A program made the translations under genes and the position numbers. Shown here piece by piece: positions 2 to 50,725 of a stretch of 64,000 bases of DNA (positions within the stretch are counted from its first letter, which is position 1; each line of letters starts with the position of its first letter). This stretch comes from an uncultured Gammaproteobacteria bacterium (GTDB taxonomy: Bacteria; Patescibacteriota; Microgenomatia; UBA8517). The DNA lies in assembly GCA_964635715.1 (NCBI GenBank), contig CAZWNZ010000002.1, positions 10,100 to 74,099 of the forward strand. The letters are read 5' to 3'. The notes under the pieces are model-generated. The model did not search any database, was not told where the DNA came from, and saw only the letters and a list, made by a program, of their open reading frames with translations.

Positions 2-193
2 ATAAGAACTGCCATTCGCGAAGGTAAGACTCATCAGATAGAAAGTATTTTAGAGACCTCGCAGGAAACAGGAATGATGACTCTTGAAAAAACCCTTGCT
101 ACTCTTGTCAAAAATGGCGAAGTGACCTTGGAAGAGGCGGAAAGTTGGTCACTGCGCCCTGAAGAATTAATGAGATTGGTTCGTGGCGTATGA
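2..193 (+). CDS. pilT: Type IV pilus retraction ATPase PilT, C-terminal fragment (5' end outside window)
   Basis: Frame 2 translates to ...IRTAIREGKTHQIESILETSQETGMMTLEKTLATLVKNGEVTLEEAE..., which matches the conserved PilT/PilU C-terminus. Stop TGA at 191-193. The gene sits immediately upstream of pilC, as in pilT-pilC operons. Confidence 0.6.
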   Translation: MRTAIREGKTHQIESILETSQETGMMTLEKTLATLVKNGEVTLEEAESWSLRPEELMRLVRGV

Positions 194-258
194 AACGATT
201 TAACTATGAACTCAACCAAAAAGACAGAAGTGTTGAGTTCTAATTGCCGTGTCTGTAT

Positions 259-1464
259 ATGAAAAGGTTCAATTATAAAGCTAAAGATAAAGTAGGAAGA
301 ATAATAAAAGGTGAAGTTGAAGCTGTTGATATTAATGCTGCTGCCAAATTGGTGAGGAGCAAGGGGTTTTTTGTTATTTCTCTTAAATCCAAGATAGACT
401 CTCCCCTGGCTTTTATTAGGAAAAGAAAGGATAAAGTTAACTCTGCCGATATTGCTACTTTTACCAGACAACTTTCGACTATGATAAACGCAGGATTGCC
501 TATTACGGAAGCCCTTTTAATACTTCGTTCTCAATCAAAAAAAACAATGCAGGCGATTGTCGCACAGCTACTGGCCGATGTTGAGGCTGGCGAATCTTTT
601 TCATCGGCTCTTAGCAAACACCCGCAAATTTTTGGAAAAACTTACATTGCCCTTGTTAAATCAGGCGAAGTTGGGGGCGTACTCGACGCCGTTCTCGTCA
701 AACTTGCCGACAATTTGGAAAAACAGGCTGAATTCAGAAGTAAAGTAAAAGGAGCTTTGATTTATCCGGTCATTATCGTTGTAGCAATGATTGTTGTTGC
801 TGTCGTGATGATGATTTTTGTTATTCCTAAATTAATGTCTTTATATACAGATATGGATGCCGAACTTCCCGCACCAACAAGAATACTTATTGGAGTATCC
901 AGTTTTATGGCAAAGTATTGGTTTGTTTTTGCCGCACTGTTGTTTATCGGATATTATGTTTTCCGTCTCTACCGTTCCACACCTGAAGGTAGGCACAAGA
1001 TTGACGAGCTGTTGTTTAAGATTCCGATTTACGGACCATTACAGCAACAGATAATTCTTACGGATTTAACCAGAACCCTGTCCATGATGGTTGGTGCCGG
1101 TGTTTCAATTTTAGAGTCTCTCCATATAACTTCAGAAGTAGTTGGCAATACGGTAATTTCGGATGCAATTATTGATTCATCAAATCAGGTGGAAAAAGGT
1201 TTTCCTGTCGCCTTTGCTTTTTCGAAGCATCCCGAAGCCTTTCCTTTTATATTAAGCCAAATGGTGGCCGTTGGAGAAGAGACAGGTAAGATGGACGATA
1301 TTTTAGGTAAAATCAGCCGCATTTTTGAAGTTGAAAGCGATGAGAAGGTAAAAGGTTTAACTGCGGCTATTGAACCAATAGTTATGGTTGTTTTGGGAAT
1401 AGGTGTTGGTTTTATGGTTATTGCGGTTATTTTGCCAATCTATAGTTTGTCGAGTACTTTCTAA
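259..1464 (+). CDS. pilC: Type IV pilus inner-membrane platform protein PilC (GspF family)
   Basis: About 400 aa with two GspF-like repeats and three TM segments. ATG at 259 (MKRFNYKAKD...) is preferred over the TTG at 244 used by the ORF track. Confidence 0.85.
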   Translation: MKRFNYKAKDKVGRIIKGEVEAVDINAAAKLVRSKGFFVISLKSKIDSPLAFIRKRKDKVNSADIATFTRQLSTMINAGLPITEALLILRSQSKKTMQAIVAQLLADVEAGESFSSALSKHPQIFGKTYIALVKSGEVGGVLDAVLVKLADNLEKQAEFRSKVKGALIYPVIIVVAMIVVAVVMMIFVIPKLMSLYTDMDAELPAPTRILIGVSSFMAKYWFVFAALLFIGYYVFRLYRSTPEGRHKIDELLFKIPIYGPLQQQIILTDLTRTLSMMVGAGVSILESLHITSEVVGNTVISDAIIDSSNQVEKGFPVAFAFSKHPEAFPFILSQMVAVGEETGKMDDILGKISRIFEVESDEKVKGLTAAIEPIVMVVLGIGVGFMVIAVILPIYSLSSTF

Positions 1465-1492
1465 AGGGTCGAAAATAGCCTTAGATTGCCAC

Positions 1493-1521
1493 TTGACAAG
1501 GTTTTTGTGAGGATTGATACT
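1493..1521 (+). promoter_or_regulatory. Sigma70-type promoter upstream of the major pilin gene
   Basis: TTGACA at 1493-1498, a 17-nt spacer, then GATACT at 1516-1521, about 14 nt upstream of the pilin ATG. Confidence 0.45.
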
Positions 1522-1534
1522 GGATATAGAAGTT

Positions 1535-2080
1535 ATGAAAAACAAGACGGCTACCGGTTTTACATTAATTGAGCTTCTTATAGTTATCGCAGTTTTAGGA
1601 ATTTTAGCAGTCGCTGTTCTTTCTGCAATTAACCCCATTGAACAAATTAACAGAAGTAGAGATACGGGCAGCCGTTCGGATGCAGAGCAGCTTTTGAGTG
1701 CAATAGACAGATTTTATGCTTCAGCCGGTTATTATCCTTGGAAAGTTGGATCAACGGGTACAGATGCGTATGCTTGGACGGCAGTACCTAGTGTCACAGA
1801 TGGTACAACGCTAATGCTTACAAAATTGTCTGAAGCAGGTACGGGTGAGGTAAAAGCTTCATTTACGACAAGAATAAGTGAGTCTGATTATAATCCTTTA
1901 TACTTGTACAATCGTGGAACTCAGGGAGATAGCACATATATCTGCTTCTTACCAAAATCTGACTCTTTCCTTACAGAGGCTGCTAATAGGTGTGGGGGAA
2001 CTCTTGCGGCAGATTTTCCCGGTGATGCTTGCCCCACTGATTGCGCCACGTCAAAGACTTGTTTATCCTGTTTACCATAA
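1535..2080 (+). CDS. pilA: Type IV (pre)pilin, candidate major pilin
   Basis: N-terminus MKNKTATG|FTLIELLIVIAVLGILA is a class III signal with a Gly-Phe cleavage site and Glu5. It has its own promoter and is the first pilin after pilC. C-terminal Cys pairs are present. Confidence 0.8.
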   Translation: MKNKTATGFTLIELLIVIAVLGILAVAVLSAINPIEQINRSRDTGSRSDAEQLLSAIDRFYASAGYYPWKVGSTGTDAYAWTAVPSVTDGTTLMLTKLSEAGTGEVKASFTTRISESDYNPLYLYNRGTQGDSTYICFLPKSDSFLTEAANRCGGTLAADFPGDACPTDCATSKTCLSCLP

Positions 2081-2892: not shown

Positions 2893-3477
2893 ATGATTAA
2901 AGCGAAAATATTTTCCAAAAGTGAAAAGATTTGTCTTATATCTGTTTTTCTGGTTTTAGTTGCCATTGCTGTCCCCAATTATATTGTCAGTTTGAGAAGA
3001 GCTCGTGATCAAGTAAGGCGCGATGATCTTGGCGCAGTCCTTCACTCAGTGGGAGAATATTATTCGGATTTTGGGTCCTTTCCATTATCTGCCCCTGACG
3101 GAAACATTATGGCATGTTTAAAAGATGGCGATGTCCCCTACCGGGGTGAAAAAGGACAGTGGATCATCAATCATATTTCCTGTTTTTGGGGAGTAAACGC
3201 TTTTGAAAATCCCGTTACAAAGACTGATTATATGGCCATTCTTCCCCGCGACCCACATTGGCAAGAAGGTGCCTCATATTTGTATATAAGTGATGGTGTG
3301 CGATGTCAGATATTTGCACACATGGAAGGAGATGATGAAGCTGAAGTAGACCCGAATGTTATTTCGAGAAACTTAATGTGCGGTAGCTATATATGCAATG
3401 TAGGTAGATCGTATAATTGTGATGTGAAGAAAAGCATAGAAACATGTGCGGAAGAAGCAGAGGCCGCTAAAAAGTAG
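2893..3477 (+). CDS. Atypical pilin-like protein (hydrophobic N-terminal helix, no canonical G-F-T-L-I-E motif)
   Basis: N-terminal segment LISVFLVLVAIAVPNYIVSLRRARDQVRRDDL resembles a mature pilin alpha1 helix but lacks the prepilin cleavage motif. Several Cys in the C-terminal half. Embedded in the pilin gene array. Confidence 0.4.
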   Translation: MIKAKIFSKSEKICLISVFLVLVAIAVPNYIVSLRRARDQVRRDDLGAVLHSVGEYYSDFGSFPLSAPDGNIMACLKDGDVPYRGEKGQWIINHISCFWGVNAFENPVTKTDYMAILPRDPHWQEGASYLYISDGVRCQIFAHMEGDDEAEVDPNVISRNLMCGSYICNVGRSYNCDVKKSIETCAEEAEAAKK

Positions 3478-5028: not shown

Positions 5029-5489
5029 AAAATACTCAAAAGAAACCGAATACCGAAAACGGACAATCTCTTTTTGAAGTTGTTGTAGCAATTGCACTAA
5101 GCGCATTAATTGTAACTGGAATTGTTGCAATGGGAGCCAATTCTATCCAAAATTCTTCATATTCAAGGGATAAAACTTTAGCTTCCAATTATGTTCAAGA
5201 GGCTCTCGAGTGGGTTCGGCAGGAAAGAGATCAAAATATGGATGTTTTTTTAGCAAAAGCTGTTCCCGGCACCACTTATTGTTTGAACTCTCTTGAGTGG
5301 CCCAAATCAGCCATTAAATGTTCAAATGGTAGTGTTATCGCTGACACTAAGTTTTCCAGAGAAATTATATTTCCATCTTGCGATGGTGTATGTCCGACAA
5401 GAGTTGTTGAAATAAAAGTTATTGTTTATTGGAATGACTCCAAGGGATATCACGAATCATCAAGTTTTACTGATTTATCTACAAGATGA
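5025..5489 (+). CDS. Minor pilin / pseudopilin-like (PilV-like)
   Basis: NGQS|LFEVVVAIALSALIV class III-like N-terminus. ATGA overlap with the upstream gene. Confidence 0.6.
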   Translation: MKNTQKKPNTENGQSLFEVVVAIALSALIVTGIVAMGANSIQNSSYSRDKTLASNYVQEALEWVRQERDQNMDVFLAKAVPGTTYCLNSLEWPKSAIKCSNGSVIADTKFSREIIFPSCDGVCPTRVVEIKVIVYWNDSKGYHESSSFTDLSTR

Positions 5490-6001
5490 AAATAAATAAG
5501 TTATATAAAAAATTTGAACAGGGATTGAGTCTTATTGAGATATTGGTTGTAGTTCTTATTTTTGCTGTTTTGGGAGTAATGATCTCAGCTTCGTTGATAC
5601 TGACCATCAATGGTACTAAAAAAGGTGAGTCAGTTATTAAAGTCAGAGAAAATGTCAATTATGCATTTTCAGTAATTGAAAGAAACTTAAGAAATGCTAA
5701 AGATATTGTGGATTGTACGGATAGTAATCAGATTGTTTATATCGACCAGTATGGTAATCAGTCCAGTTTTTCCTGTGTTAATGTCGGTCAGGAAAATTCT
5801 TATGTGGCATCCGGTTCGGGTTCATTGAGACTAACCTCAACAATGTTAAAGATAACTAACTGTTCTTTTACCTGTTTGCAACAAGAAGATCTTTCTCAAT
5901 CGCCTATTATTACAATAGATATTTCAGCCAAAGATGCTGAACTTTCGGGTGTACAAAGTTCCAGTGTTAATGCTCAGACAAAAGTATATTTAAGAAATTA
6001 G
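5486..6001 (+). CDS. Minor pilin / pseudopilin-like (PilW-like)
   Basis: EQGLS|LIEILVVVLIFAVLG N-terminus. Translationally coupled within the pilin array. Confidence 0.6.
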   Translation: MKINKLYKKFEQGLSLIEILVVVLIFAVLGVMISASLILTINGTKKGESVIKVRENVNYAFSVIERNLRNAKDIVDCTDSNQIVYIDQYGNQSSFSCVNVGQENSYVASGSGSLRLTSTMLKITNCSFTCLQQEDLSQSPIITIDISAKDAELSGVQSSSVNAQTKVYLRN

Positions 6002-6049
6002 AAACAACAAATTGCATTTAAATTATGTAGTTGCTAAACTAAAAATGCG

Positions 6050-6925
6050 ATGAAGAAATATGAATCTGGTCAGGCTTTGGTATTAATACTTCTTTCTCTT
6101 TCGGTTGTTTTAACGATAATTTTATATGTTTTGTCCCGCTCAGTCACAGATATCTCGATTTCCACTCAACAAAATGATTCTGTTAGGGCTTTTTCAGCTG
6201 CTGAGGCCGGAATAGAAAATGCTTTAATTACCGGGGTTGGTACGGGGGGTGATGTGACAATCGGTGATGCTACTTATTCGGTCGAAGTTTTAAATTCAGG
6301 CTCTACGACGTTTAATTATCCAGACTCTATGCTTTCCGGAGATACGATGACTTTATGGTTTGTTTCTCACAAAAGCGATGGTAGTTTAACTTGTGGCTCA
6401 GGGTATCCTGCATGTTTTACCGGAAATACTGTCAAAGTTTGTTGGGGAAAGTCGGGAACATCATCTTCCGGTACATCAACTCCGGCTCTTGAGGTTAGTG
6501 TTTATTACGAATCTATTCCAGGAGACCTTTCCAGTATAAAAGTTGTTCGATCTACATACGACCCGAATGCTTCCAGAATTTCCTCGAATTCTTTCGGGTC
6601 TGCAGTGACAAGTTTGTGTACAATAGACGGAATCGGTTATGCATTTCAAAATACAATAACTTTGTCGGAATTGGGAGGTGTGAGTTTTAACAATAATGGT
6701 TTATTGTTTGCAAAAATTAAAATGTTATATAACACCGATGTGGCACATCCTATCGGTTTTAGCGCTTCCGAAGCTCTTCCTTCTCAAGGGCTAGAGGTTG
6801 TTTCGACAGGAACTTCCGGTGCCGGAAGTAGTCAAAGCAATCGCAAAATTAGCGTATTTCAGGGTTGGGCGGAGTTTCCTCTCAGCGGTTTTTCACTTCT
6901 GGTTCCAGCTGGAATTACAAAATAG
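6050..6925 (+). CDS. PilX-like minor pilin / pilus tip-associated protein
   Basis: N-terminus MKKYESGQALVLILLSLSVVLTII followed by ...AFSAAEAGIENAL resembles the PilX N-terminal domain. About 290 aa. Confidence 0.45.
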   Translation: MKKYESGQALVLILLSLSVVLTIILYVLSRSVTDISISTQQNDSVRAFSAAEAGIENALITGVGTGGDVTIGDATYSVEVLNSGSTTFNYPDSMLSGDTMTLWFVSHKSDGSLTCGSGYPACFTGNTVKVCWGKSGTSSSGTSTPALEVSVYYESIPGDLSSIKVVRSTYDPNASRISSNSFGSAVTSLCTIDGIGYAFQNTITLSELGGVSFNNNGLLFAKIKMLYNTDVAHPIGFSASEALPSQGLEVVSTGTSGAGSSQSNRKISVFQGWAEFPLSGFSLLVPAGITK

Positions 6926-11207: not shown

Positions 11208-13211
11208 TCAATTGGAAATTGTGTGTTCAATCATATGTTTTACCCAAGGGTATTTATTGGGGCTTTTAATGATATCGACAGCAGTGTTTTTTGCAGCCTT
11301 AATCAGTTCATAATTGTCCCAACTGGCGACTTTGAGTTCGGGGAATCCTGACTGTGCGTTTCCGAATATTTCTCCCGGCCCTCTTAGTTTTAAGTCAAGT
11401 TCAGACAGTTCAAAACCGGAGTATGTCTTTTCCATCGCTTTCAGCCTCGTGTACGCATGTCCAGAGTGGAAGTTACTAAAAAGTAGACAGTAAGACTGCA
11501 TATCACTCCTACCCACCCTACCGCGCAGCTGGTGAAGCCCAGCTAAGCCGAAGCGCTCTGCAGCCTCGATTACCATAATTGTTGCGTTTGGGATGTCAAT
11601 TCCCACTTCAACCACAGGTGTGGTGACCAAAATATCTATTTTTCTGCTTTTAAAATCGTCCAATACCTGATCCTTTTCTTGGGCTTTCATACGTCCGTGA
11701 AGAAGACCCAGCTTTTGATTTGCAAATGTAGATTTAAGGCGGTTAAATTCGGAAGTTACAGACTTTACATCCGCCAGTGTTTCGGATTCAGAATCTTCAA
11801 TTAGTGGGCAAACTATAAAAGCTTGAGCTTTTTGACCCACAATTTGTTTATTAATCCATTTATAAGCACCCGATCTTTTCTCTTCGGGAACAACCCAAGT
11901 TTTCACTTTTCTGCGGCCTTTAGGCATATCTTTGAGTATCGAAAGATCCATGTCCCCATATGAGGCAAGAGCAATGGTTCTGGGTATAGGAGTTGCCGTC
12001 ATTGTTAGTACGTGTGGTGTCCCCGATTTTTTAATTAGATGCTTTCTTTGTTCAACTCCAAAGCGATGCTGTTCATCAATTACTACGAAGGCAATGTTGT
12101 CAAAACTTACCTTGTCGTGTATTAATGAGTGCGTTCCTATAAAAATATCGCTTCTGCCGACCTCTATTTTTTTGACACTTCCGGTTATTAGTGAAATTCT
12201 AATGTTAAATTTAGCAAATATTTTTTTGAGAGTTTCATAGTGCTGATTGGCAAGTATTTGAGTCGGAGCCATGATGATACTTTGAAAACCGTTTGCAAAA
12301 GCCGCAAACATGCCGGCGGCCGCAACAACAGTTTTTCCGGAACCGACATCACCTTCAAGAAGTCTATTCATGGGCACATCCTTGACCATATCGGATAATA
12401 TTTCATTGATCGTTATTACCTGAGAATCCGTCAGTTTAAATGGCAAATCGCTTATGAACTTTTCCGTTAGTTTTTTATCAATTTTCAATTTATGGGCAAT
12501 TTTGTTTTTGTGCCAGTTAATTTTGCGGATCATGCTAGTTAACTCCAAATTCAAAAGTTCATTAAAAGCCAATCTTTTTTTACCTGTTTCCATATCGTCT
12601 ATTTTTTCCGGAAAATGAACGTTTTTAATGGAATCTCTGTAACCGGTTAGGGAATATTTAGTCAAAATGTCATTCAGCAAATATTCTTCTATAGTCGCAA
12701 TCGAAAAAGCGTCGCTGATTTTCCTGCGAATCCATTTTGATGAAAGTCCCGAGGTTTCGGGATAAACAGGTACGAGACGTCCTGTATGCATAGTGTTGTC
12801 TGTTTCCTCGACCATTAGTTCGTAATCGGGTGAAGTCAAACAAAGTTTTCTATTAAAAAATCCAACTTTTCCCGACAGAGATATTAAGCGTCCGGGATAT
12901 AATGTTTTAATTAGGAAGGGTTGGTTGAACCAAAGTACTGTGATTTTTCCAGTAGAATCCTCAACAGAACCAATTTGCATTTTTAGACCTCTTTTTGAAT
13001 AGATGTTTTTAAGAGAAACAACCTTGGCATGTATGGTGGATGTATCGCCTGCACGCAGATTTTTTATTGTAGTAATGTTTGAGTAGTCAAGATAGCGGCT
13101 GGGAACGTGATAGAACAGATCTTCAATAGTGGTAACACCAAGTTTCTCAAATTTTTTTGCAAAAACAGGACCAATATTCGGCAAATCGGAAATGCTCGAA
13201 TTTAAATCCAT
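11208..13211 (-). CDS. recG: ATP-dependent DNA helicase RecG
   Basis: Wedge domain followed by an SF2 helicase core (GDVGSGKT Walker A, DEQHRFG motif II). 667 aa. Confidence 0.9.
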   Translation of the reverse strand: MDLNSSISDLPNIGPVFAKKFEKLGVTTIEDLFYHVPSRYLDYSNITTIKNLRAGDTSTIHAKVVSLKNIYSKRGLKMQIGSVEDSTGKITVLWFNQPFLIKTLYPGRLISLSGKVGFFNRKLCLTSPDYELMVEETDNTMHTGRLVPVYPETSGLSSKWIRRKISDAFSIATIEEYLLNDILTKYSLTGYRDSIKNVHFPEKIDDMETGKKRLAFNELLNLELTSMIRKINWHKNKIAHKLKIDKKLTEKFISDLPFKLTDSQVITINEILSDMVKDVPMNRLLEGDVGSGKTVVAAAGMFAAFANGFQSIIMAPTQILANQHYETLKKIFAKFNIRISLITGSVKKIEVGRSDIFIGTHSLIHDKVSFDNIAFVVIDEQHRFGVEQRKHLIKKSGTPHVLTMTATPIPRTIALASYGDMDLSILKDMPKGRRKVKTWVVPEEKRSGAYKWINKQIVGQKAQAFIVCPLIEDSESETLADVKSVTSEFNRLKSTFANQKLGLLHGRMKAQEKDQVLDDFKSRKIDILVTTPVVEVGIDIPNATIMVIEAAERFGLAGLHQLRGRVGRSDMQSYCLLFSNFHSGHAYTRLKAMEKTYSGFELSELDLKLRGPGEIFGNAQSGFPELKVASWDNYELIKAAKNTAVDIIKSPNKYPWVKHMIEHTISN

Positions 13212-13216
13212 TTTAA

Positions 13217-13318
13217 TTAAGAGTAGATTATAAAAGGCAGGATTGCTCCCAGGATTAGTGCTATGCCTGCGATAATAATTACTACAGTAAATATTTTTTT
13301 ACCCTTTTTACTAATCAT
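13217..13318 (-). CDS. Possible 33-aa single-TM micro-protein (MISKKGKKIFTVVIIIAGIALILGAILPFIIYS)
   Basis: Its ATG overlaps the tyrS stop codon (ATGA), and its stop lies 6 nt before the recG ATG. The hydrophobic core is flanked by Lys residues. No homology assessed. Confidence 0.2.
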   Translation of the reverse strand: MISKKGKKIFTVVIIIAGIALILGAILPFIIYS

Positions 13319-14463
13319 TTTGCTTTTAGAAAAGTTCTGGAACCGACTTTTATTTCGTCTCCGGTTTTGACCTGATAGTTTGAATCATCGATCATTTTTC
13401 CATTTACGTCAACAGCTTTTTGTTTAATTAAACGTTTAGCCTCACTTTTGCTACCCTTCGAAGTGAAATCTACGATTGTATCTGTCAATGTTTTTCCGGC
13501 ATCTATTTTTATATTAAATTCAGGCTTTCTCTCCTGAAAAATATGCTCAAATTTACCCTGAGACTTAATTGCTGCGTCTTCTCCCCAAAGCAAACTAACT
13601 ACCTCGAGCGCCAGGTGTTTTTTCTCTGTCATCGGGTTTTTGTTTATCTTTTCCATGATTCCATCCAAAGGAAGTTCTGTGAGCAATTCAAAACCCAGTT
13701 TTATCACCTCATCGGGAAACGACATAATACCTGCGTAAAAATTTTCAGGCGTAGAGTCCAAAAATAGTGCGTTTCCTGTAGTTTTTCCGACTTTGTTTCC
13801 GTCTTTGTCTACTAGGAGCTTGGTTGTTAACACATACTTCTCCTTTTTGGCAACGGCATTCATCAGAGTTCTTCCTGCCATCATATTAAACATTTGATCA
13901 TTCCCCCCCACTTCCAGGTCCACTCCCATTTCGACAGAATCTTGGGCTTGAGCTACCGGATACAAAAATTCATGAAGATAAATTGGGGCATTGCTTTTGA
14001 GCCTATTTTGGAACATATCGCGTTCAATCATTTGTTGAACTGTGAAATTAGAGGTAATTTCGATAAGGTCTTTAAAAGAAATTTTATCTAGCCATTTGGA
14101 GTTAAATAATATTTTAGCGGGATTTTTTCCTTCAAAATCAAGAACCATGGCTGCCTGTTTTTTCCAGGCTTTGGCATTTTTCAAAACTTCCTTTCGAGTG
14201 AGTTTTTTTCTGGTGGCAAGTTTATCAGTCGGATCCCCTATCATTCCGGTAAAATCACCAACCAGGAAGATAACTTCGTGGCCTAACTTTTGGAATTGCC
14301 TAAGTTTCATTAAACCGACAAAATTTCCAAGGTGAAGTGAAGGAGCTGATGGATCAAATCCCTGGTAAAGTTTGATTTTTCTTTTAGACATCAAATTAGC
14401 CAGACCTTTTTTGTCAGGCAATACTTGTTGCACCCCTCTAGTTAAAACTTCATTGGTATCCAT
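13315..14463 (-). CDS. tyrS: Tyrosine--tRNA ligase
   Basis: HIGH-type motif (PSAPSLHLGN), KMSKS-like KVGKT, and a C-terminal S4 domain. Start is placed at MDTNEVL (14463) to avoid a 29-nt overlap with the downstream M20 gene. The ORF track extends to 14502. Confidence 0.85.
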   Translation of the reverse strand: MDTNEVLTRGVQQVLPDKKGLANLMSKRKIKLYQGFDPSAPSLHLGNFVGLMKLRQFQKLGHEVIFLVGDFTGMIGDPTDKLATRKKLTRKEVLKNAKAWKKQAAMVLDFEGKNPAKILFNSKWLDKISFKDLIEITSNFTVQQMIERDMFQNRLKSNAPIYLHEFLYPVAQAQDSVEMGVDLEVGGNDQMFNMMAGRTLMNAVAKKEKYVLTTKLLVDKDGNKVGKTTGNALFLDSTPENFYAGIMSFPDEVIKLGFELLTELPLDGIMEKINKNPMTEKKHLALEVVSLLWGEDAAIKSQGKFEHIFQERKPEFNIKIDAGKTLTDTIVDFTSKGSKSEAKRLIKQKAVDVNGKMIDDSNYQVKTGDEIKVGSRTFLKAK

Positions 14464-29321: not shown

Positions 29322-29911
29322 CACAATCTTTTTCTCGTGCATATAATGTCCTAGTGAAAAATAAGAAAATTGTTTTGATTGGAGTATTAATGGTGGTTGC
29401 GGTGGTTTTGGTGGTGCTATTTTTATTGAAAAAGAATAACTCAACATCTTCCACATCCTCAAACATCACTTCAGATGAGGAGTCCACATTTGCCGGTTCA
29501 ATGAAGGATCTTATAGCTAGTGGAAAGTCACAAAAATGCTCTTACACTAATGAGAGTGGAAGTGGCATGTTTTACATTTCTTCTGTGGGAGATTTCAGAG
29601 GAGACTTAACATCTGCAATTGAGGGAGTAAGCACAAATAGCCACATAATAGTAACCGACAACACTTCATACTATTGGTCGGATGGTCAATCTACAGGCAT
29701 GAAAATAGTTAGTGAAGATAATCAGATTGTAGAAACTGAAGATATCGACACAAATAGTTATTCTGTTACAGATATGGATAGTAGCTATACATATAAATGT
29801 AATGTTTGGATATTGGACTCTTCCAAATTTAACTTACCCGATGACGTTGATTTTCAATCGATTGATGAAATGATGGGTTCCTACGGCATAGAAATTCCTT
29901 CTTCAGAATAG
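29318..29911 (+). CDS. Hypothetical membrane-anchored Ser/Thr-rich protein
   Basis: N-terminal TM helix (IVLIGVLMVVAVVLVVLFLL), then an STSSTSSNITS linker and an acidic C-terminal domain. ATGA coupling with dus. Confidence 0.4.
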   Translation: MTQSFSRAYNVLVKNKKIVLIGVLMVVAVVLVVLFLLKKNNSTSSTSSNITSDEESTFAGSMKDLIASGKSQKCSYTNESGSGMFYISSVGDFRGDLTSAIEGVSTNSHIIVTDNTSYYWSDGQSTGMKIVSEDNQIVETEDIDTNSYSVTDMDSSYTYKCNVWILDSSKFNLPDDVDFQSIDEMMGSYGIEIPSSE

Positions 29912-29995
29912 GTTTTGAATTACCCGCACACTTCAGATATAATTGCAATGTAGTTTACGGACACTTACATCGCTTTGGATGAAGCGGTAGTATAC

Positions 29996-30069
29996 GGACG
30001 CTTAGCTCAGTTGGTTAGAGCGCATTCTTGACGTGAATGAGGTCAGGGGTTCGAGTCCCTTAGCGTCCA
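29996..30069 (+). tRNA. tRNA-Val (anticodon GAC)
   Basis: GGACGCT-TA-GCTC-AGTTGGTTA-GAGC-G-CATTC-TTGACGT-GAATG-AGGTC-AGGGG-TTCGAGT-CCCTT-AGCGTCC-A. Perfect acceptor stem. Confidence 0.85.
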
Positions 30070-30134
30070 CTCGCTTCGCTCGTTTCCGCTTCGGTTCTCG
30101 ATAGTGCTAGATAGGGAATTGGTGTTGTGCACAC

Positions 30135-30152
30135 GAGTTCCTTAGCGTCCAC
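30135..30152 (+). repeat. Partial copy of the tRNA-Val(GAC) 3' end
   Basis: GAGTTCCTTAGCGTCCAC versus the tRNA 3' end GAGTCCCTTAGCGTCCAC (17/18), 83 bp downstream. A 5'-end-like copy (TACGGACACTTA) lies at ~29958-29969. Confidence 0.6.
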
Positions 30153-30220
30153 ACATTCGACTCGTTTCTCTCGCTCAGTGCAAGCTTACAATAAGCCAAT
30201 TATTTAGTTATGATGAAAGT

Positions 30221-30850
30221 TTACCCAGCAGATCTTTGTGAATAACTTTCGGGATTAAGAAGAAAACTTGTACCCTTTTTGTGATATTGAGCCCAATAAT
30301 TTTTCTTTTCGGCCCTTTTGTTAGTGCTTTGAAGCCATGTGGCTGCCAAGTCAATCCTCTGTCTGAATGACTGTAAAAACTCCAAAAGATTGGTAAAAAA
30401 GTTTATATGGTAAATTCCGGGTTCAACCGGAGCGGAAACTGCTGCAGCTTTTGCCGCCTCGGCCAGTCCTTGTGTACCCTCAGCAACTTTTTGAATTTCC
30501 TGCATTATAGCCTGCAACTGTACTTTAAGCTCAGAGCTTTTTTCCTGAAAGACACGCTTTTCTTCATTAACCAAGTGCTTTTCCATAGAAATTTGCTTTT
30601 TCTCAGCTTGAACTTTTTCTTCTCTACCACTTAAAACATCGCTCATTTGCAATGTTTGTCCCTGATTCAACTCACCCGATCTTCTAGTGTTGGGCAAACC
30701 CAATCCTAAAAGTTCACGGAAAAAATCGTCAGAAGTATTTTTAAGAAGATCTCTTGTTTGAACTGAAGCACTTGTTCCTAAATCTTTAAGAGATTCAAGA
30801 ACATTTTGGCGGGTGATGTTGTTTTGATTTTTCTTTTTATTATCTGCCAT
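30221..30850 (-). CDS. Hypothetical coiled-coil protein
   Basis: 209 aa with a Lys-rich N-terminus and a central heptad-rich region (EKKQISMEKHLVNEEKRVFQEKSSELKVQLQAIMQEIQK). No recognisable catalytic motif. Confidence 0.4.
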   Translation of the reverse strand: MADNKKKNQNNITRQNVLESLKDLGTSASVQTRDLLKNTSDDFFRELLGLGLPNTRRSGELNQGQTLQMSDVLSGREEKVQAEKKQISMEKHLVNEEKRVFQEKSSELKVQLQAIMQEIQKVAEGTQGLAEAAKAAAVSAPVEPGIYHINFFTNLLEFLQSFRQRIDLAATWLQSTNKRAEKKNYWAQYHKKGTSFLLNPESYSQRSAG

Positions 30851-37204: not shown

Positions 37205-37284
37205 CTAATCAGGATGACACGAAATAGGAGACGAAGTCAAGTTTGTGAGCCATTGTCAAACCCGATCCGGTGCAAACGCAAGTG

Positions 37285-37356: not shown

Positions 37357-37398
37357 AAGCATTTATGCGAGCAAAGTCTTTCGGTGGCCAAGCTTTGC

Positions 37399-37420
37399 TT
37401 ACCACTGAACTACCGCCGCA
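37399..37420 (-). repeat. Partial copy of the tRNA-Gly(GCC) 5' end (22 nt)
   Basis: Minus strand TGCGGCGGTAGTTCAGTGGTAA sits 43 nt upstream of the intact tRNA, followed by an unrelated GCAAAG...CTTTGC hairpin. No T-arm follows. Confidence 0.6.
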
Positions 37421-38957: not shown

Positions 38958-39114
38958 CGAATAATCGTGAGCGATGAGAAAAGCTTTGCTTATCTCATCG
39001 CGTCGAAATGGATTTCGCTTTTAAGTTTATCGCATTAGCTTAAACTTTTCCGCTCCATCATTTCTCCTCTCAAAATTACAAAAGTAATTTTGTAATAAAC
39101 ACAATAAAAACTTG

Positions 39115-39501: not shown

Positions 39502-39542
39502 AAGTGTAATAAGGCATTGGAGCCAACCGACAAGGTATTACC

Positions 39543-39564
39543 TTATCCGTTGAGCTACAAGGCC
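39543..39564 (-). repeat. Partial copy of the tRNA-Arg(TCT) 5' end (~22-24 nt), no T-arm
   Basis: Minus strand GGCCTTGTAGCTCAACGGATAA lies 42 nt upstream of the intact tRNA. A weaker 3'-end-like fragment (tgaccttagactgcaacgattcgaccaagg) is at ~39386-39420. Confidence 0.55.
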
Positions 39565-45506: not shown

Positions 45507-45524
45507 CTATCCCGCTCTGAACGA

Positions 45525-45603
45525 AGTGAAGAGTGGGAATGAACGCAGCGATTATCCCGCTCCAAGTCATCGAGGAGCAAGGGAATGAGCGCAGCGATTA
45601 TCC
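45525..45603. repeat. Two ~33-nt direct repeats (46-bp period) downstream of tRNA-Gly(TCC)
   Basis: GGGAATGAACGCAGCGATTATCCCGCTCCAAGT and GGGAATGAGCGCAGCGATTATCCTACTCCAAGT. Both contain the word TTATCCCGCT/TTATCCTACT, which resembles the tRNA-Gly 3' end (CTATCCCGCT). Confidence 0.5.
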
Positions 45604-45620
45604 TACTCCAAGTTTATATG

Positions 45621-50659: not shown

Positions 50660-50683
50660 AAATAAGTATTACGAAGCAACCAC

Positions 50684-50725
50684 CCCGCCATGGCGGGGTG
50701 CTCTAACCATTGAGCTACGACCACC
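50684..50725 (-). other. 5' half of a split tRNA-like element (G-1, acceptor 5' strand, D-arm) ending in the palindromic direct repeat
   Basis: Minus strand G-GTGGTCG-TA-GCTC-AATGGTTA-GAGC-A-CCCCGCCATGGCGGGG. The D-arm is nearly identical to that of tRNA-His. No T-arm follows. Confidence 0.55.

What the first reader, a model, noticed from the sequence alone, without database searches (positions are those of the whole stretch)
29950..30160. tRNA-Val(GAC) flanked on both sides by partial copies of its own 5' and 3' ends
An 18-nt copy of the tRNA 3' end lies 83 bp downstream of the gene (GAGTTCCTTAGCGTCCAC, 17/18). A 5'-end-like word (TACGGACACTTA versus TACGGACGCTTA) lies ~30 bp upstream. A displaced direct repeat of a tRNA 3' end is the classical signature of site-specific integration or excision at tRNA genes (attL/attR). 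Here the repeats are only tens of bp apart and no integrase is nearby. That suggests an excision scar, a decayed tandem tRNA array, or a recombination hotspot.
Basis: seen in the sequence. Interest (0 to 1): 0.5.

Follow-up and report, generated by a model that had tools for sequence, protein, structure and literature searches.

The report
Hairpin repeats copying tRNA gene ends
The tRNA-Val gene of this Woesebacteria (candidate phyla radiation) genome is bracketed by short hairpin-forming inserts, each carrying an exact copy and an inverted copy of the adjoining tRNA end; they belong to an apparently undescribed repeat family found at many tRNA genes in this group and are not the scar of an integrated virus.

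Summary
tRNA-Val(GAC) lies at 29996-30070. It is preceded by an 18-nt near-copy of its leader plus 5' end (29950-29967, 16/18). It is followed, 63 nt on, by a 19-nt copy of its nt 56-74 (30134-30152, 18/19). Neither is expected by chance.

It is not a lone att scar. In this and related Woesebacteria the same anatomy recurs at nine tRNA species:
- an exact outer copy of the tRNA end;
- an imperfect inverted copy next to it, specific to the cognate tRNA in permutation tests;
- a short conserved core, so the unit folds as a hairpin in the leader or trailer.

The 3' duplication is 19 nt (C56-C74) at five tRNA species. Module families are shared between different tRNAs (Val/Leu-TAG 79% identical; Gly/Leu-GAG). 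The spacer is not a decayed tRNA. Conspecific assemblies differ by clean 60-72-nt unit indels.

The locus is still a rearrangement hotspot. The tRNA cassette is inverted in one relative, and a prophage with recombinases abuts the same tRNA in another.

Best reading: small target-duplicating modules that form co-transcribed tRNA-end hairpins. Mechanism and function are unproven. No match was found in Rfam or the searched literature.

The parts
29915..29943 (+). Sigma-70-like promoter, TTGAAT-17 nt-TATAAT. The predicted transcription start near 29950 is the first base of the upstream repeat.
   Evidence: 10/12 matches. The same TGATATAAT-type box precedes the 5' copy in L130, L002 and L134. Transcription itself is inferred.
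29950..29967 (+). Outer 5' repeat. It holds 9 nt of leader plus GGACACTTA (29959-29967), a copy of tRNA nt 1-9 with one mismatch.
   Evidence: Orthologous copies occur in L130 and L002 (GGACGCTTA). In L134 the copy (GGACACTTA) equals that genome's own variant tRNA 5' end.
29968..29995 (+). 5' module. It contains the small hairpin CGCTT-TGGATG-AAGCG (29971-29986), a degenerate acceptor-3'-like arm AGCGGTA, and the proximal leader GTAGTATAC.
   Evidence: The hairpin is identical in L130, where the arm AGCGGCC pairs 6/7 with GGACGCT.
29996..30070 (+). tRNA-Val(GAC). CCA is not encoded beyond C74.
   Evidence: ARAGORN; Rfam RF00005, 66.1 bits.
30071..30086 (+). Trailer prefix of the 3' module (TCGCTTCGCTCGTTTC).
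   Evidence: Conserved in the Val units of L127 and L061 and in the Leu-TAG unit of L138.
30087..30100 (+). Inverted arm H' (CGCTTCGGTTCTCG), an imperfect complement of tRNA nt 56-69 and of the outer copy.
   Evidence: MFE pairs CGCU/AGCG, GG/CC and CUCG/CGAG. Cognate duplex -14.3 kcal/mol versus a non-cognate mean of -7.7. Covariation at positions 57 and 59 across tRNA species.
30101..30133 (+). Conserved core of the 3' module (ATAGTGCT...TGCACA), with an internal GTGC/GCAC stem.
   Evidence: In the Woesebacteria loci the motif GATAGTGC...TGCAC occurs only just downstream of tRNAs in the tRNA's orientation, apart from one coding-region chance hit.
30134..30152 (+). Outer 3' copy H, matching tRNA nt 56-74 (C56 of the T loop to C74) at 18/19.
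   Evidence: L127 carries the same C-to-T variant. The L002 copy is identical to L002's own tRNA, which differs from the window tRNA at two positions.
30153..30168 (+). Prefix-like sequence after the outer copy (ACATTCGACTCGTTTC, 11/16 to 30071-30086). It extends the direct repeat to 35 nt.
37367..37419 (-). Family member: 5' hairpin unit of tRNA-Gly(GCC). An exact copy of nt 1-20, the loop UAAGCAAAGCUUGG and an inverted arm.
   Evidence: A homologous unit is polymorphic in L138.
39513..39564 (-). Family member: 5' hairpin unit of tRNA-Arg(TCT). An exact copy of nt 1-21 plus an inverted arm; -26 to -27 kcal/mol.
   Evidence: An orthologous unit is present once or twice in tandem in L138-L141.
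50672..50725 (-). Family member: 5' unit of tRNA-His(GTG). A D-arm copy followed by a GC hairpin.
38971..39001 (-). Family member: 5' hairpin of tRNA-Phe. An acceptor-like 9-bp stem with the loop UAAGCAAAGCUUU.
   Evidence: L002 has the orthologous hairpin with a compensating stem difference.
45518..45608 (+). Variant family: two tandem ~45-nt trailer units of tRNA-Gly(TCC). Each ends in a 9-10-nt copy of the acceptor 3' strand.
   Evidence: unit 1 hairpin, -13 kcal/mol.

Best explanation
The partial copies around tRNA-Val(GAC) are two members of families of short 'tRNA-end hairpin units' that sit in the leaders and trailers of many tRNA genes in Woesebacteria.

Anatomy (shown). Each unit leaves the tRNA end in a direct-inverted-direct arrangement. 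The tRNA's own end (X) lies next to an imperfect inverted copy (X'). Beyond that come a short conserved core or loop and an exact outer copy of X. At the 3' side X is always nt 56-74, which is 19 nt. At the 5' side X is nt 1-9 or nt 1-21, plus a few leader bases.

Origin and turnover (inferred).
- Units arise by insertion of a small non-coding module that duplicates its target. This resembles a MITE-like element with a ruler-like 19-bp target duplication anchored in the T loop.
- Units are lost or amplified by slippage between the direct repeats.

Role in the transcript (inferred).
- The units lie between the promoter and the tRNA, or just after it, so they would be transcribed as part of the pre-tRNA.
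- The outer copy and X' fold into an acceptor/T-arm-like hairpin.
- By sequestering X', the outer copy keeps X' from pairing with the tRNA's own end. This would explain why the outer copy stays exact while X' decays.

The units are not attL/attR sites and not a tRNA pseudogene.
For: (1) Recurrence.
- In the window, cognate partial copies flank Val-GAC, Gly-GCC, Arg-TCT, His-GTG, Phe and Gly-TCC.
- In relatives they also flank Ala-GGC (L004), Leu-GAG and Leu-TAG.
- Across 115 tRNA calls, 25 have a 3' copy downstream and 9 have a 5' copy upstream. Wrong-side and wrong-strand controls give 0-6.

(2) Fixed geometry. The 3' copy is exactly C56-C74 (19 nt) for Val, Arg, Leu-GAG, Gly and Leu-TAG.

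(3) The module is a family, not local decay.
- The window Val module versus the L138 Leu-TAG module is 48/61 identical, z=14.6. This is closer than to the L002 Val module.
- Gly versus Leu-GAG is 39/48, z=9.9.
- No module resembles a tRNA more than shuffled sequence does.

(4) Cognate inverted arm.
- Anchored Watson-Crick pairs are 6.6/9 for cognate pairs versus 4.25/9 for non-cognate pairs. Four different pair types occur at position 59.
- Duplex energy is -13.4 versus -7.7 kcal/mol, and the cognate assignment is the best of 120 permutations.
- For 5' units only 4 of 720 permutations reach the cognate assignment.
- Seven of eight 3' units share one long-hairpin topology.

(5) Clean presence/absence.
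- Conspecific contigs L138-L141 differ by precise 60-, 71- and 72-nt unit indels bounded by the repeats.
- The L002 Gly-GCC trailer equals the L138 sequence that follows the outer copy, so it is an empty site.

(6) The outer copy tracks its own tRNA.
- The window and L002 tRNA-Val differ at two T-arm positions, and each 3' copy follows its own tRNA.
- In L134 the 5' copy follows that genome's variant acceptor stem.

(7) Position and strand.
- The promoter lies immediately upstream of the 5' copy.
- The sense strand folds better than the antisense strand in 13 of 17 units, with 28 versus 7 G-U pairs.

(8) No Rfam family matches. No paper describing this was found.
Against: - No transposase, reverse transcriptase, Cas1 or other partner protein has been identified.
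- The modules have no terminal inverted repeats.
- A purely generic mobile module should not contain a cognate inverted arm. The insertion process would have to copy the target in both orientations, or the arm would have to be shaped by selection afterwards.
- Indels bounded by direct repeats can arise by deletion alone, so active insertion is not shown.
- Single-sequence fold z-scores are weak (-0.9 to +0.4), except Leu-GAG at -3.8. RNAalifold on the raw MAFFT alignment gave almost no consensus structure.
- Transcription and folding are inferred; no RNA data were available.
- Units are absent from many close relatives (L142-L145, L130, L133, L003), so they are dispensable.
- The window's own units are partly decayed. 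The 5' copy has a mismatch that breaks pairing, and its inverted arm is weak (cognate duplex only -1.5 kcal/mol).
- The sample is small: about 8 distinct 3' units and 11 distinct 5' units, several of them orthologous.
Confidence: 0.5

Rival explanations
1. Functional processing signal. The units are tRNA 'top-half' (acceptor/T-arm minihelix) mimics kept because RNase P, RNase Z or the CCA-adding enzyme recognise them. Cleavage at the mimic would release or trim the pre-tRNA leader or trailer. This would work like the mascRNA tRNA-like structure at the MALAT1 3' end, or like stem-loops that replace tRNAs as punctuation in mitochondria. It is not exclusive of a mobile origin.
For: - The hairpins end at position 72 and leave N73+C74 as a 3' overhang, like an acceptor end. 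The left arm differs from the true 5' strand by changes that keep pairing; for Arg, G2-to-A and C3-to-U are read from the sequences.
- Cognate-specific complementarity.
- More G-U pairs on the sense strand.
- Four of the five 3' units in L141 follow the last tRNA of a transcription unit (read).
- Conserved loop motifs occur across tRNA species: UAAGCAAAGCUUG and AUAGUGC..GCACA.
Against: - The units are dispensable. They are absent in many relatives and polymorphic within a species.
- A processing mimic has no need to be identical to the neighbouring tRNA.
- The Leu-GAG unit sits between two tRNAs that are adjacent in the empty allele.
- The acceptor-like stem is only 4 bp in the window's Val unit.
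- No enzymology can be tested here.
Confidence: 0.2
2. By-product of replication. Fork stalling at highly transcribed, structured tRNA genes causes two template switches, which leave a local direct-inverted-direct triplication. The units would be neutral footprints with no mobility and no function.
For: - The X - X' - X order at both tRNA ends is what fold-back or template-switch events produce.
- Junctions fall at the most conserved tRNA positions: U8-A9, A21 and U55/C56.
- Unit borders coincide with rearrangement breakpoints. Examples are the inverted Val cassette and the window Gly-GCC inner leader, which resembles the Phe-Gly spacer of L138.
Against: - This does not explain the non-templated conserved cores shared by different tRNAs and genomes.
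- It does not explain the constant 19-nt length.
- It does not explain why the outer copy is exact while the inverted copy is only about 70-80% complementary.
Confidence: 0.15
3. Integrase scar. The 19-nt copy is the displaced attR core of a former prophage or island that integrated in the T loop of tRNA-Val, and the 63-nt spacer is what remains of the element.
For: - An identity block running from the T loop to the 3' end is the classical layout for T-loop-targeting tyrosine integrases (established knowledge; tRNA gene fragments from integration are reviewed in PMC9897764).
- L133 shows a prophage with serine and tyrosine recombinases abutting the same tRNA.
- In L061 the spacer plus copy abuts the SLT gene exactly where the real tRNA does in L135, with no tRNA in the 273 nt upstream.
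Against: - The same module and geometry occur at five tRNA species. Conservative site-specific recombination into a new tRNA would replace its 3' end with a foreign one, yet both copies are always cognate.
- The spacer is homologous end to end in four lineages and starts exactly at the tRNA end.
- No integrase lies within about 6 kb.
- The junction sequence is absent from 2.9 million viral contigs, and the core motifs occur there only as chance hits away from tRNAs.
- L133 has no second copy within 14.9 kb.
Confidence: 0.07
4. Decayed tandem tRNA-Val. The 82 nt after the gene are a second tRNA-Val that has degenerated except for its 3' end.
For: - Unit lengths (70-82 nt) are close to tRNA length.
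- The Val prefix TCGCTTCGCTCGTTT resembles tRNA nt 3-17 (12/15, by eye). L002 shares an 11-mer with the D arm.
Against: - Local alignment scores of modules against all tRNAs do not exceed shuffles.
- The tRNA covariance model gives no hit at E<=10.
- The same module follows tRNA-Leu(TAG).
- Uniform decay cannot leave 18-19/19 identity next to about 50% identity.
Confidence: 0.03

Closest known systems
attL/attR direct repeats left by integrative elements at tRNA genes (T-loop-targeting tyrosine integrases; tRNA gene fragments, PMC9897764)
   Same: A direct repeat of the tRNA 3' segment, starting in the T loop and running to the gene end, while the tRNA itself stays intact. The same tRNA is used by a prophage in a relative (L133).
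   Different: - Only 52-63 nt lie between the repeats, with no cargo and no integrase.
- The same module occurs at several tRNA species, always with cognate repeats.
- An inverted cognate arm lies inside the unit.
- A mirror-image version exists at 5' ends.
Casposon integration at the tRNA-Pro 3' end (Aciduliprofundum boonei casposase, PMC5137440)
   Same: Target-duplicating insertion at the 3' end of a tRNA gene, with the T-psi-C-loop segment as part of the recognised target and a ruler-like fixed duplication.
   Different: - The casposon duplication is 15 bp and overlaps the tRNA by only 5 bp; here it is 19 nt, all inside the tRNA.
- Casposons have terminal inverted repeats and encode Cas1 and PolB. 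No such repeats or genes are seen here, and the host is bacterial CPR rather than archaeal.
MITEs and REP-type small hairpin repeats in prokaryotes (e.g. PMC11602168)
   Same: Short, non-coding, hairpin-forming intergenic repeats. They occur in several copies per genome, are polymorphic between strains, and are flanked by direct repeats.
   Different: Here one arm of the hairpin and the flanking repeat are copies of the local target (the tRNA end) rather than element sequence. Insertion is restricted to tRNA ends. The duplication is unusually long.
tRNA-like structures used as RNA processing signals (MALAT1 mascRNA, PMC8457004; mitochondrial tRNA punctuation)
   Same: An acceptor/T-arm-like helix next to a transcript end that RNase P or RNase Z could recognise.
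   Different: Those are single conserved elements with demonstrated cleavage. Here cleavage is untested, the mimic copies its neighbour tRNA, and the units are dispensable.
Three-segment alternative-pairing leaders (attenuator logic, 1:2 versus 2:3)
   Same: X, X' and the tRNA's own X can form mutually exclusive pairings. The outer copy can act as an anti-'anti-tRNA' segment.
   Different: No sensor, terminator or regulated outcome is known. This is an analogy only.

Membership tests
Integrase att sites (attL/attR at a tRNA gene) | Direct repeat of the tRNA 3' segment, with the tRNA restored | tested here: met
   30052-30070 versus 30134-30152, 18/19.
Integrase att sites (attL/attR at a tRNA gene) | Integrase and/or cargo between or beside the repeats | tested here: not met
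   63 nt with no ORF. Pfam scans of the ten ORFs between 23.2 and 35.6 kb show no recombinase.
Integrase att sites (attL/attR at a tRNA gene) | One element family tied to one att core sequence | tested here: not met
   Homologous modules occur at Val and Leu-TAG, and at Gly and Leu-GAG, each with cognate repeats.
Integrase att sites (attL/attR at a tRNA gene) | Relatives with an occupied site (element between the tRNA and the displaced copy) | tested here: inconclusive
   The L133 prophage abuts the tRNA, but the contig holds no second copy. In L061 the unit lies at least 273 nt from any tRNA, but that contig is only 1.1 kb.
Transposon / MITE with target-site duplication | Same element at several loci | tested here: met
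   Homology groups A and B. The motif is found only next to tRNAs.
Transposon / MITE with target-site duplication | Duplication of constant length flanking the insert | tested here: met
   19 nt (C56-C74) at five tRNA species.
Transposon / MITE with target-site duplication | Empty versus occupied sites in close relatives | tested here: met
   L140 versus L138, L139 and L141. L002 versus L138 at Gly-GCC.
Transposon / MITE with target-site duplication | Terminal inverted repeats of the element | tested here: not met
   None is seen at the module ends (alignment A2). The only inverted repeat is the target-derived arm.
Transposon / MITE with target-site duplication | Autonomous partner encoding a transposase | not tested
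   Whole genomes could not be scanned. Viral-contig scans for the core motifs gave only chance hits.
Casposon | Cas1 casposase, PolB, terminal inverted repeats and a 14-15-bp duplication | tested here: not met
   The duplication is 19 nt, there are no terminal inverted repeats, and the insert holds no ORF. The comparator values are from PMC5137440.
tRNA pseudogene / tandem tRNA array | Spacer recognisably homologous to a tRNA | tested here: not met
   Smith-Waterman scores do not exceed the shuffle null. No RF00005 hit at E<=10.
Intrinsic terminator | GC-rich hairpin followed by a U tract | tested here: not met
   0 terminator-like sites in 29800-30300. The tails after the units are A-rich.
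Any curated RNA family (Rfam 15) | Covariance-model match | tested here: not met
   Only tRNAs reach significance in the window and in L141.
tRNA-like processing element (minihelix substrate of RNase P / RNase Z) | Coaxial acceptor/T-like helix with a 3' single-stranded end | tested here: inconclusive
   The topology is present in 7 of 8 units, but the stems are irregular and the outer (acceptor-like) stem is only 4 bp in the window unit.
tRNA-like processing element (minihelix substrate of RNase P / RNase Z) | Cleavage by the enzyme at the mimic | not testable with these tools
   This needs enzymology or RNA end-mapping.

The most novel reading that the evidence does not exclude
Woesebacteria, and perhaps other CPR bacteria, harbour an undescribed class of tRNA-end-copying elements. 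These are small modules that insert at the T loop/3' end or at the U8-A9/D-loop 5' region of any tRNA gene. Each insertion generates both a direct copy and an inverted copy of the target. This could occur through a new target-templated or guide-directed integration chemistry. The resulting three-part RNA switches (X, X', X) could affect pre-tRNA folding or maturation.
Probability: 0.3. Interest if true: 0.8.

Novelty: new variant of a known kind. Interest (0 to 1): 0.62.

Why it matters
If the units are mobile, they point to an integration mechanism with three properties. It recognises tRNA genes generically. It measures a fixed 19-bp duplication from the T loop. It copies the target in both orientations. 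No known bacterial transposon family does all three; the nearest analogue is Cas1-type integration.

If the units act at the RNA level, they would be the first cognate 'self-mimic' hairpins in bacterial pre-tRNA leaders and trailers. They would bear on how CPR bacteria, with reduced RNase sets, mature tRNAs.

Practical consequences:
- Such partial tRNA copies can be mistaken for att sites in genomic-island and prophage prediction.
- They mark rearrangement breakpoints in CPR genomes.
- They give strain-level markers, because units are gained and lost as clean blocks.

Tried and rejected
- Chance: rejected.
- Assembly artefact: rejected. The independent assembly L001 is identical, and the units recur in four separate assemblies.
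- Decayed tRNA: at first I read the spacer as a degenerate tRNA-Val by eye. Alignment against all tRNAs with shuffle controls did not support this, and the same module follows tRNA-Leu(TAG).
- Whole-locus structured RNA: folding 29945-30175 gave z=-0.62.
- RNAalifold on the MAFFT alignment of units gave an almost empty consensus. The arms are not in register in that alignment, so I used anchored pair counts, duplex energies and permutation controls instead.
- Metagenome scan with the spacer motif: about 120 hits. All but three were chance matches in unrelated high-GC contigs. The three real hits were L047, L085 and L061.
- Viral-contig scans:
  - the junction sequence gave 0 hits;
  - the tRNA 3' end gave one provirus, L133;
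  - the core motifs gave only chance hits, none near a tRNA.
- Control set of unrelated metagenome contigs: only 6 tRNAs, so it was uninformative.
- The last two contig look-ups (P0005, P0008) gave loci without tRNA-Val.
- IS91 (GTTC target), IS200/IS605 (TTGAT target), integron attC, DGR, retron, bridge-RNA and guide-RNA analogies were considered from memory. They were dropped because the boundaries, sizes or defining motifs do not fit. None was formally tested.
- Literature searches found no description of the units. The library is incomplete, so absence is weak evidence.
Full report
**What is there.** The window is a piece of a Woesebacteria (Patescibacteria/CPR) chromosome. Its trigger factor is 63-69% identical to those of two Candidatus Woesebacteria MAGs and one Patescibacteria MAG. 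Neighbouring genes are ThrRS, BipA, BacA, Dus, DUF5660 and trigger factor. The window carries 15 tRNA genes.

tRNA-Val(GAC) lies at 29996-30070.
- The last 19 nt of the gene (30052-30070) recur at 30134-30152 with one mismatch. The similarity runs on to 35 nt.
- An 18-nt block made of 9 leader bases and tRNA nt 1-9 (29987-30004) recurs at 29950-29967 with two mismatches.
- Each pattern has exactly two hits in 64 kb with up to three mismatches, and none in shuffled sequence.
- An independent assembly (L001) is identical.
- A TTGAAT-17-TATAAT promoter ends at 29943, so the upstream copy would be the first thing transcribed.

**The pattern is not unique to this tRNA.** A scan of every tRNA in the window found similar features elsewhere.
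- Gly-GCC, Arg-TCT and His-GTG have 20-22-nt copies of their own 5' part about 60 nt upstream.
- Phe has an acceptor-like hairpin upstream.
- Gly-TCC has two tandem trailer units, each ending in a copy of its acceptor 3' strand.

I fetched related loci through the flanking trigger-factor gene and through DUF5660 homologues. In contigs L138-L141 (a species represented by GCA_000995865.1), five of nine tRNAs are each followed by a 51-61-nt module and then an exact copy of their last 19 nt. These are Arg-TCT, Leu-GAG, Gly-GCC, Leu-TAG and Val-GAC. The copy always runs from C56 of the T loop to C74.

Over 115 tRNA calls, 25 had such a downstream 3' copy and 9 had an upstream 5' copy. Wrong-side and wrong-strand controls gave 0-6. 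Lineages L142-L145 had none.

**Anatomy of the units.** The 3' unit has four segments:
- a prefix (TCGCTTCRCTCGT...);
- an arm H' that is an imperfect complement of tRNA nt 56-72;
- a core (ATAGTGCY...GCACA) with its own small stem;
- the exact copy H.

The arm is specific to its cognate tRNA.
- With the pairing anchored at C56, cognate arm/copy pairs make 6.6 of 9 Watson-Crick pairs, against 4.25 for non-cognate combinations.
- G-C, C-G, A-U and U-A all occur at position 59.
- The cognate assignment is the best of 120 permutations.
- Duplex energies agree: -13.4 versus -7.7 kcal/mol, again best of 120.
- Seven of eight units fold into the same long irregular hairpin, which ends at position 72 and leaves N73-C74 unpaired.

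The 5' units mirror this. They hold an exact copy of nt 1-9 or nt 1-21, a small loop (often UAAGCAAAGCUUG) and an imperfect complement. They fold at -10 to -27 kcal/mol, and only 4 of 720 permutations reach the cognate assignment.

So each decorated tRNA end shows a direct-inverted-direct arrangement with the exact copy outermost. The sense strand folds better than the antisense strand in 13 of 17 units and has four times as many G-U pairs. This fits a transcribed hairpin but does not prove one.

**The modules are families shared between tRNAs.**
- The window's Val module is 79% identical (48/61, z=14.6) to the Leu-TAG module of L138. That is closer than to the Val module of L002.
- The Gly and Leu-GAG modules form a second group (39/48, z=9.9).
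- Arg stands apart.
- No module resembles any tRNA more than shuffled sequence does. The tRNA covariance model and the rest of Rfam find nothing.

This removes the 'decayed tandem tRNA' reading.

**Turnover.** Four conspecific assemblies are otherwise nearly identical, yet they differ by precise indels, all bounded by the direct repeats:
- an extra 60-nt 5' unit in L141;
- a missing 71-nt Arg unit in L140;
- a missing 72-nt Leu-GAG unit in L140.

The Gly-GCC trailer of L002 equals the sequence that follows the outer copy in L138, so it is a clean empty site. The window's Gly-GCC trailer retains a truncated remnant.

The outer copies follow their own tRNA when tRNAs differ between lineages. This holds at two T-arm positions in window versus L002, and for the A5/U68 acceptor variant in L134. 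Tracking is imperfect: the window's 3' copy shares one C-to-T change with L127, and the window's 5' copy has a mismatch.

The locus is a hotspot.
- ORF197 and DUF5660 flank the tRNA in both the window and L130, but the promoter-copy-tRNA cassette is inverted in L130.
- Other relatives carry different genes between DUF5660 and BacA.
- In provirus contig L133 a large serine recombinase gene overlaps the 3' end of a near-identical tRNA-Val(GAC). A tyrosine integrase and a terminase lie downstream. The contig holds no second repeat.
- In L061 the module plus copy abuts the stop codon of an SLT-like gene exactly where the real tRNA does in L135, with no tRNA in the 273 nt upstream.

So integration and rearrangement do occur at this tRNA. 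The short repeats in the window are not explained by them. Conservative recombination into a different tRNA would replace its 3' end, whereas both copies are always cognate at five tRNA species.

**Most likely explanation.**
- *Shown:* recurrence, fixed geometry, cognate inverted arms, shared module families and clean indels.
- *Inferred:* the units arise by a target-duplicating insertion of small non-coding modules, are lost or amplified by slippage between the repeats, and are co-transcribed as acceptor/T-arm-like hairpins.
- *Speculative:* the idea that the outer exact copy neutralises the inverted arm, which could otherwise pair with the tRNA's own end. It accounts for the asymmetry between exact outer copies and decayed inverted arms, but it is untested.

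Rivals that remain open are a processing-signal function (a minihelix for RNase P or RNase Z) and neutral template-switch footprints.

The closest known mechanism is casposase integration at the tRNA-Pro 3' end. That mechanism has a 15-bp duplication overlapping the tRNA by 5 bp, and the T-psi-C-loop segment is part of the recognised target (PMC5137440). Here the duplication length, the lack of terminal repeats, the lack of any coding capacity and the inverted cognate arm all differ.

**Limits.**
- The sample is small and partly orthologous.
- No RNA data, whole-genome census or candidate enzyme was available.
- Collection scans were capped.
- Literature searches found no description but cover only open-access text.

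Noticed in passing
window ~38995-39090 (minus strand; motif TTTTGAGAGGAGAA at 39062-39075); L127 ~3390-3475; L130 ~12255-12336: A conserved structured leader element sits directly upstream of three different tRNAs in three genomes: Phe in the window, Val-GAC in L127 and Ala-GGC in L130. It reads hairpin + UUUUGAGAGGAGAA ... GUUCAAGC..GGUGAAC ... UUCGACG. The consensus fold is -22 kcal/mol, and 7 of 19 pairs show compensatory changes. There is no Rfam match. In the window it ends exactly where the outer Phe 5' copy begins.
   Followed up: partly
L133 1-14943 (IMG/VR UViG_3300014208_000518): A prophage-like contig. A 509-aa large serine recombinase gene (113-1642, minus strand) overlaps the last 11 nt of tRNA-Val(GAC) (49-123). 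A tyrosine integrase lies at 5322-6476 and a terminase at 13282-14100. This shows that the tRNA is an integration target in related CPR bacteria.
   Followed up: partly
window 29915-30070 versus L130 10640-10788: The promoter-leader-tRNA-Val cassette is inverted between two genomes whose flanking genes (ORF197/ORF188 and DUF5660) keep their order and orientation.
   Followed up: yes
L061 1-1110 (Ga0172363_10279013): A complete Val-type 3' unit abuts the stop codon of an SLT-like gene with no tRNA in the 273 nt upstream. That upstream stretch is full of GC-rich perfect hairpins (e.g. AGGGCGGCGGCTG...CAGCCGCCGCCCT) and ends in a decayed copy of the tRNA 3' end (AGAGCCCAC).
   Followed up: partly
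L141 2600-2720: Two identical tandem 60-nt 5' units lie upstream of tRNA-Arg(TCT). Each ends in TTTATAAT immediately before the (copy of the) tRNA 5' end. The other three conspecific contigs have one unit.
   Followed up: yes
window 45518-45608: The tRNA-Gly(TCC) trailer has two tandem ~45-nt units with a different core (GGGAATGARCGCAGCGATT). Each ends in a 9-10-nt copy of the acceptor 3' strand. Unit 1 folds as a hairpin at -13 kcal/mol.
   Followed up: partly
window 37245-37283 (minus strand): The trailer of tRNA-Gly(GCC) looks like a truncated remnant of the 3' unit seen intact in L138 (GGGTTTGACAATGGCTCAC versus GGGTTTGATAGTGCC...GCAC). It lacks the outer copy.
   Followed up: no
window 27145-50658: All 15 tRNA genes in the 64-kb window lie within a 24-kb stretch. 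Most have their own TGnTATAAT-type promoter 8-25 nt upstream. Most do not encode CCA; only Phe and Leu-TAA end in CCA in the gene.
   Followed up: no
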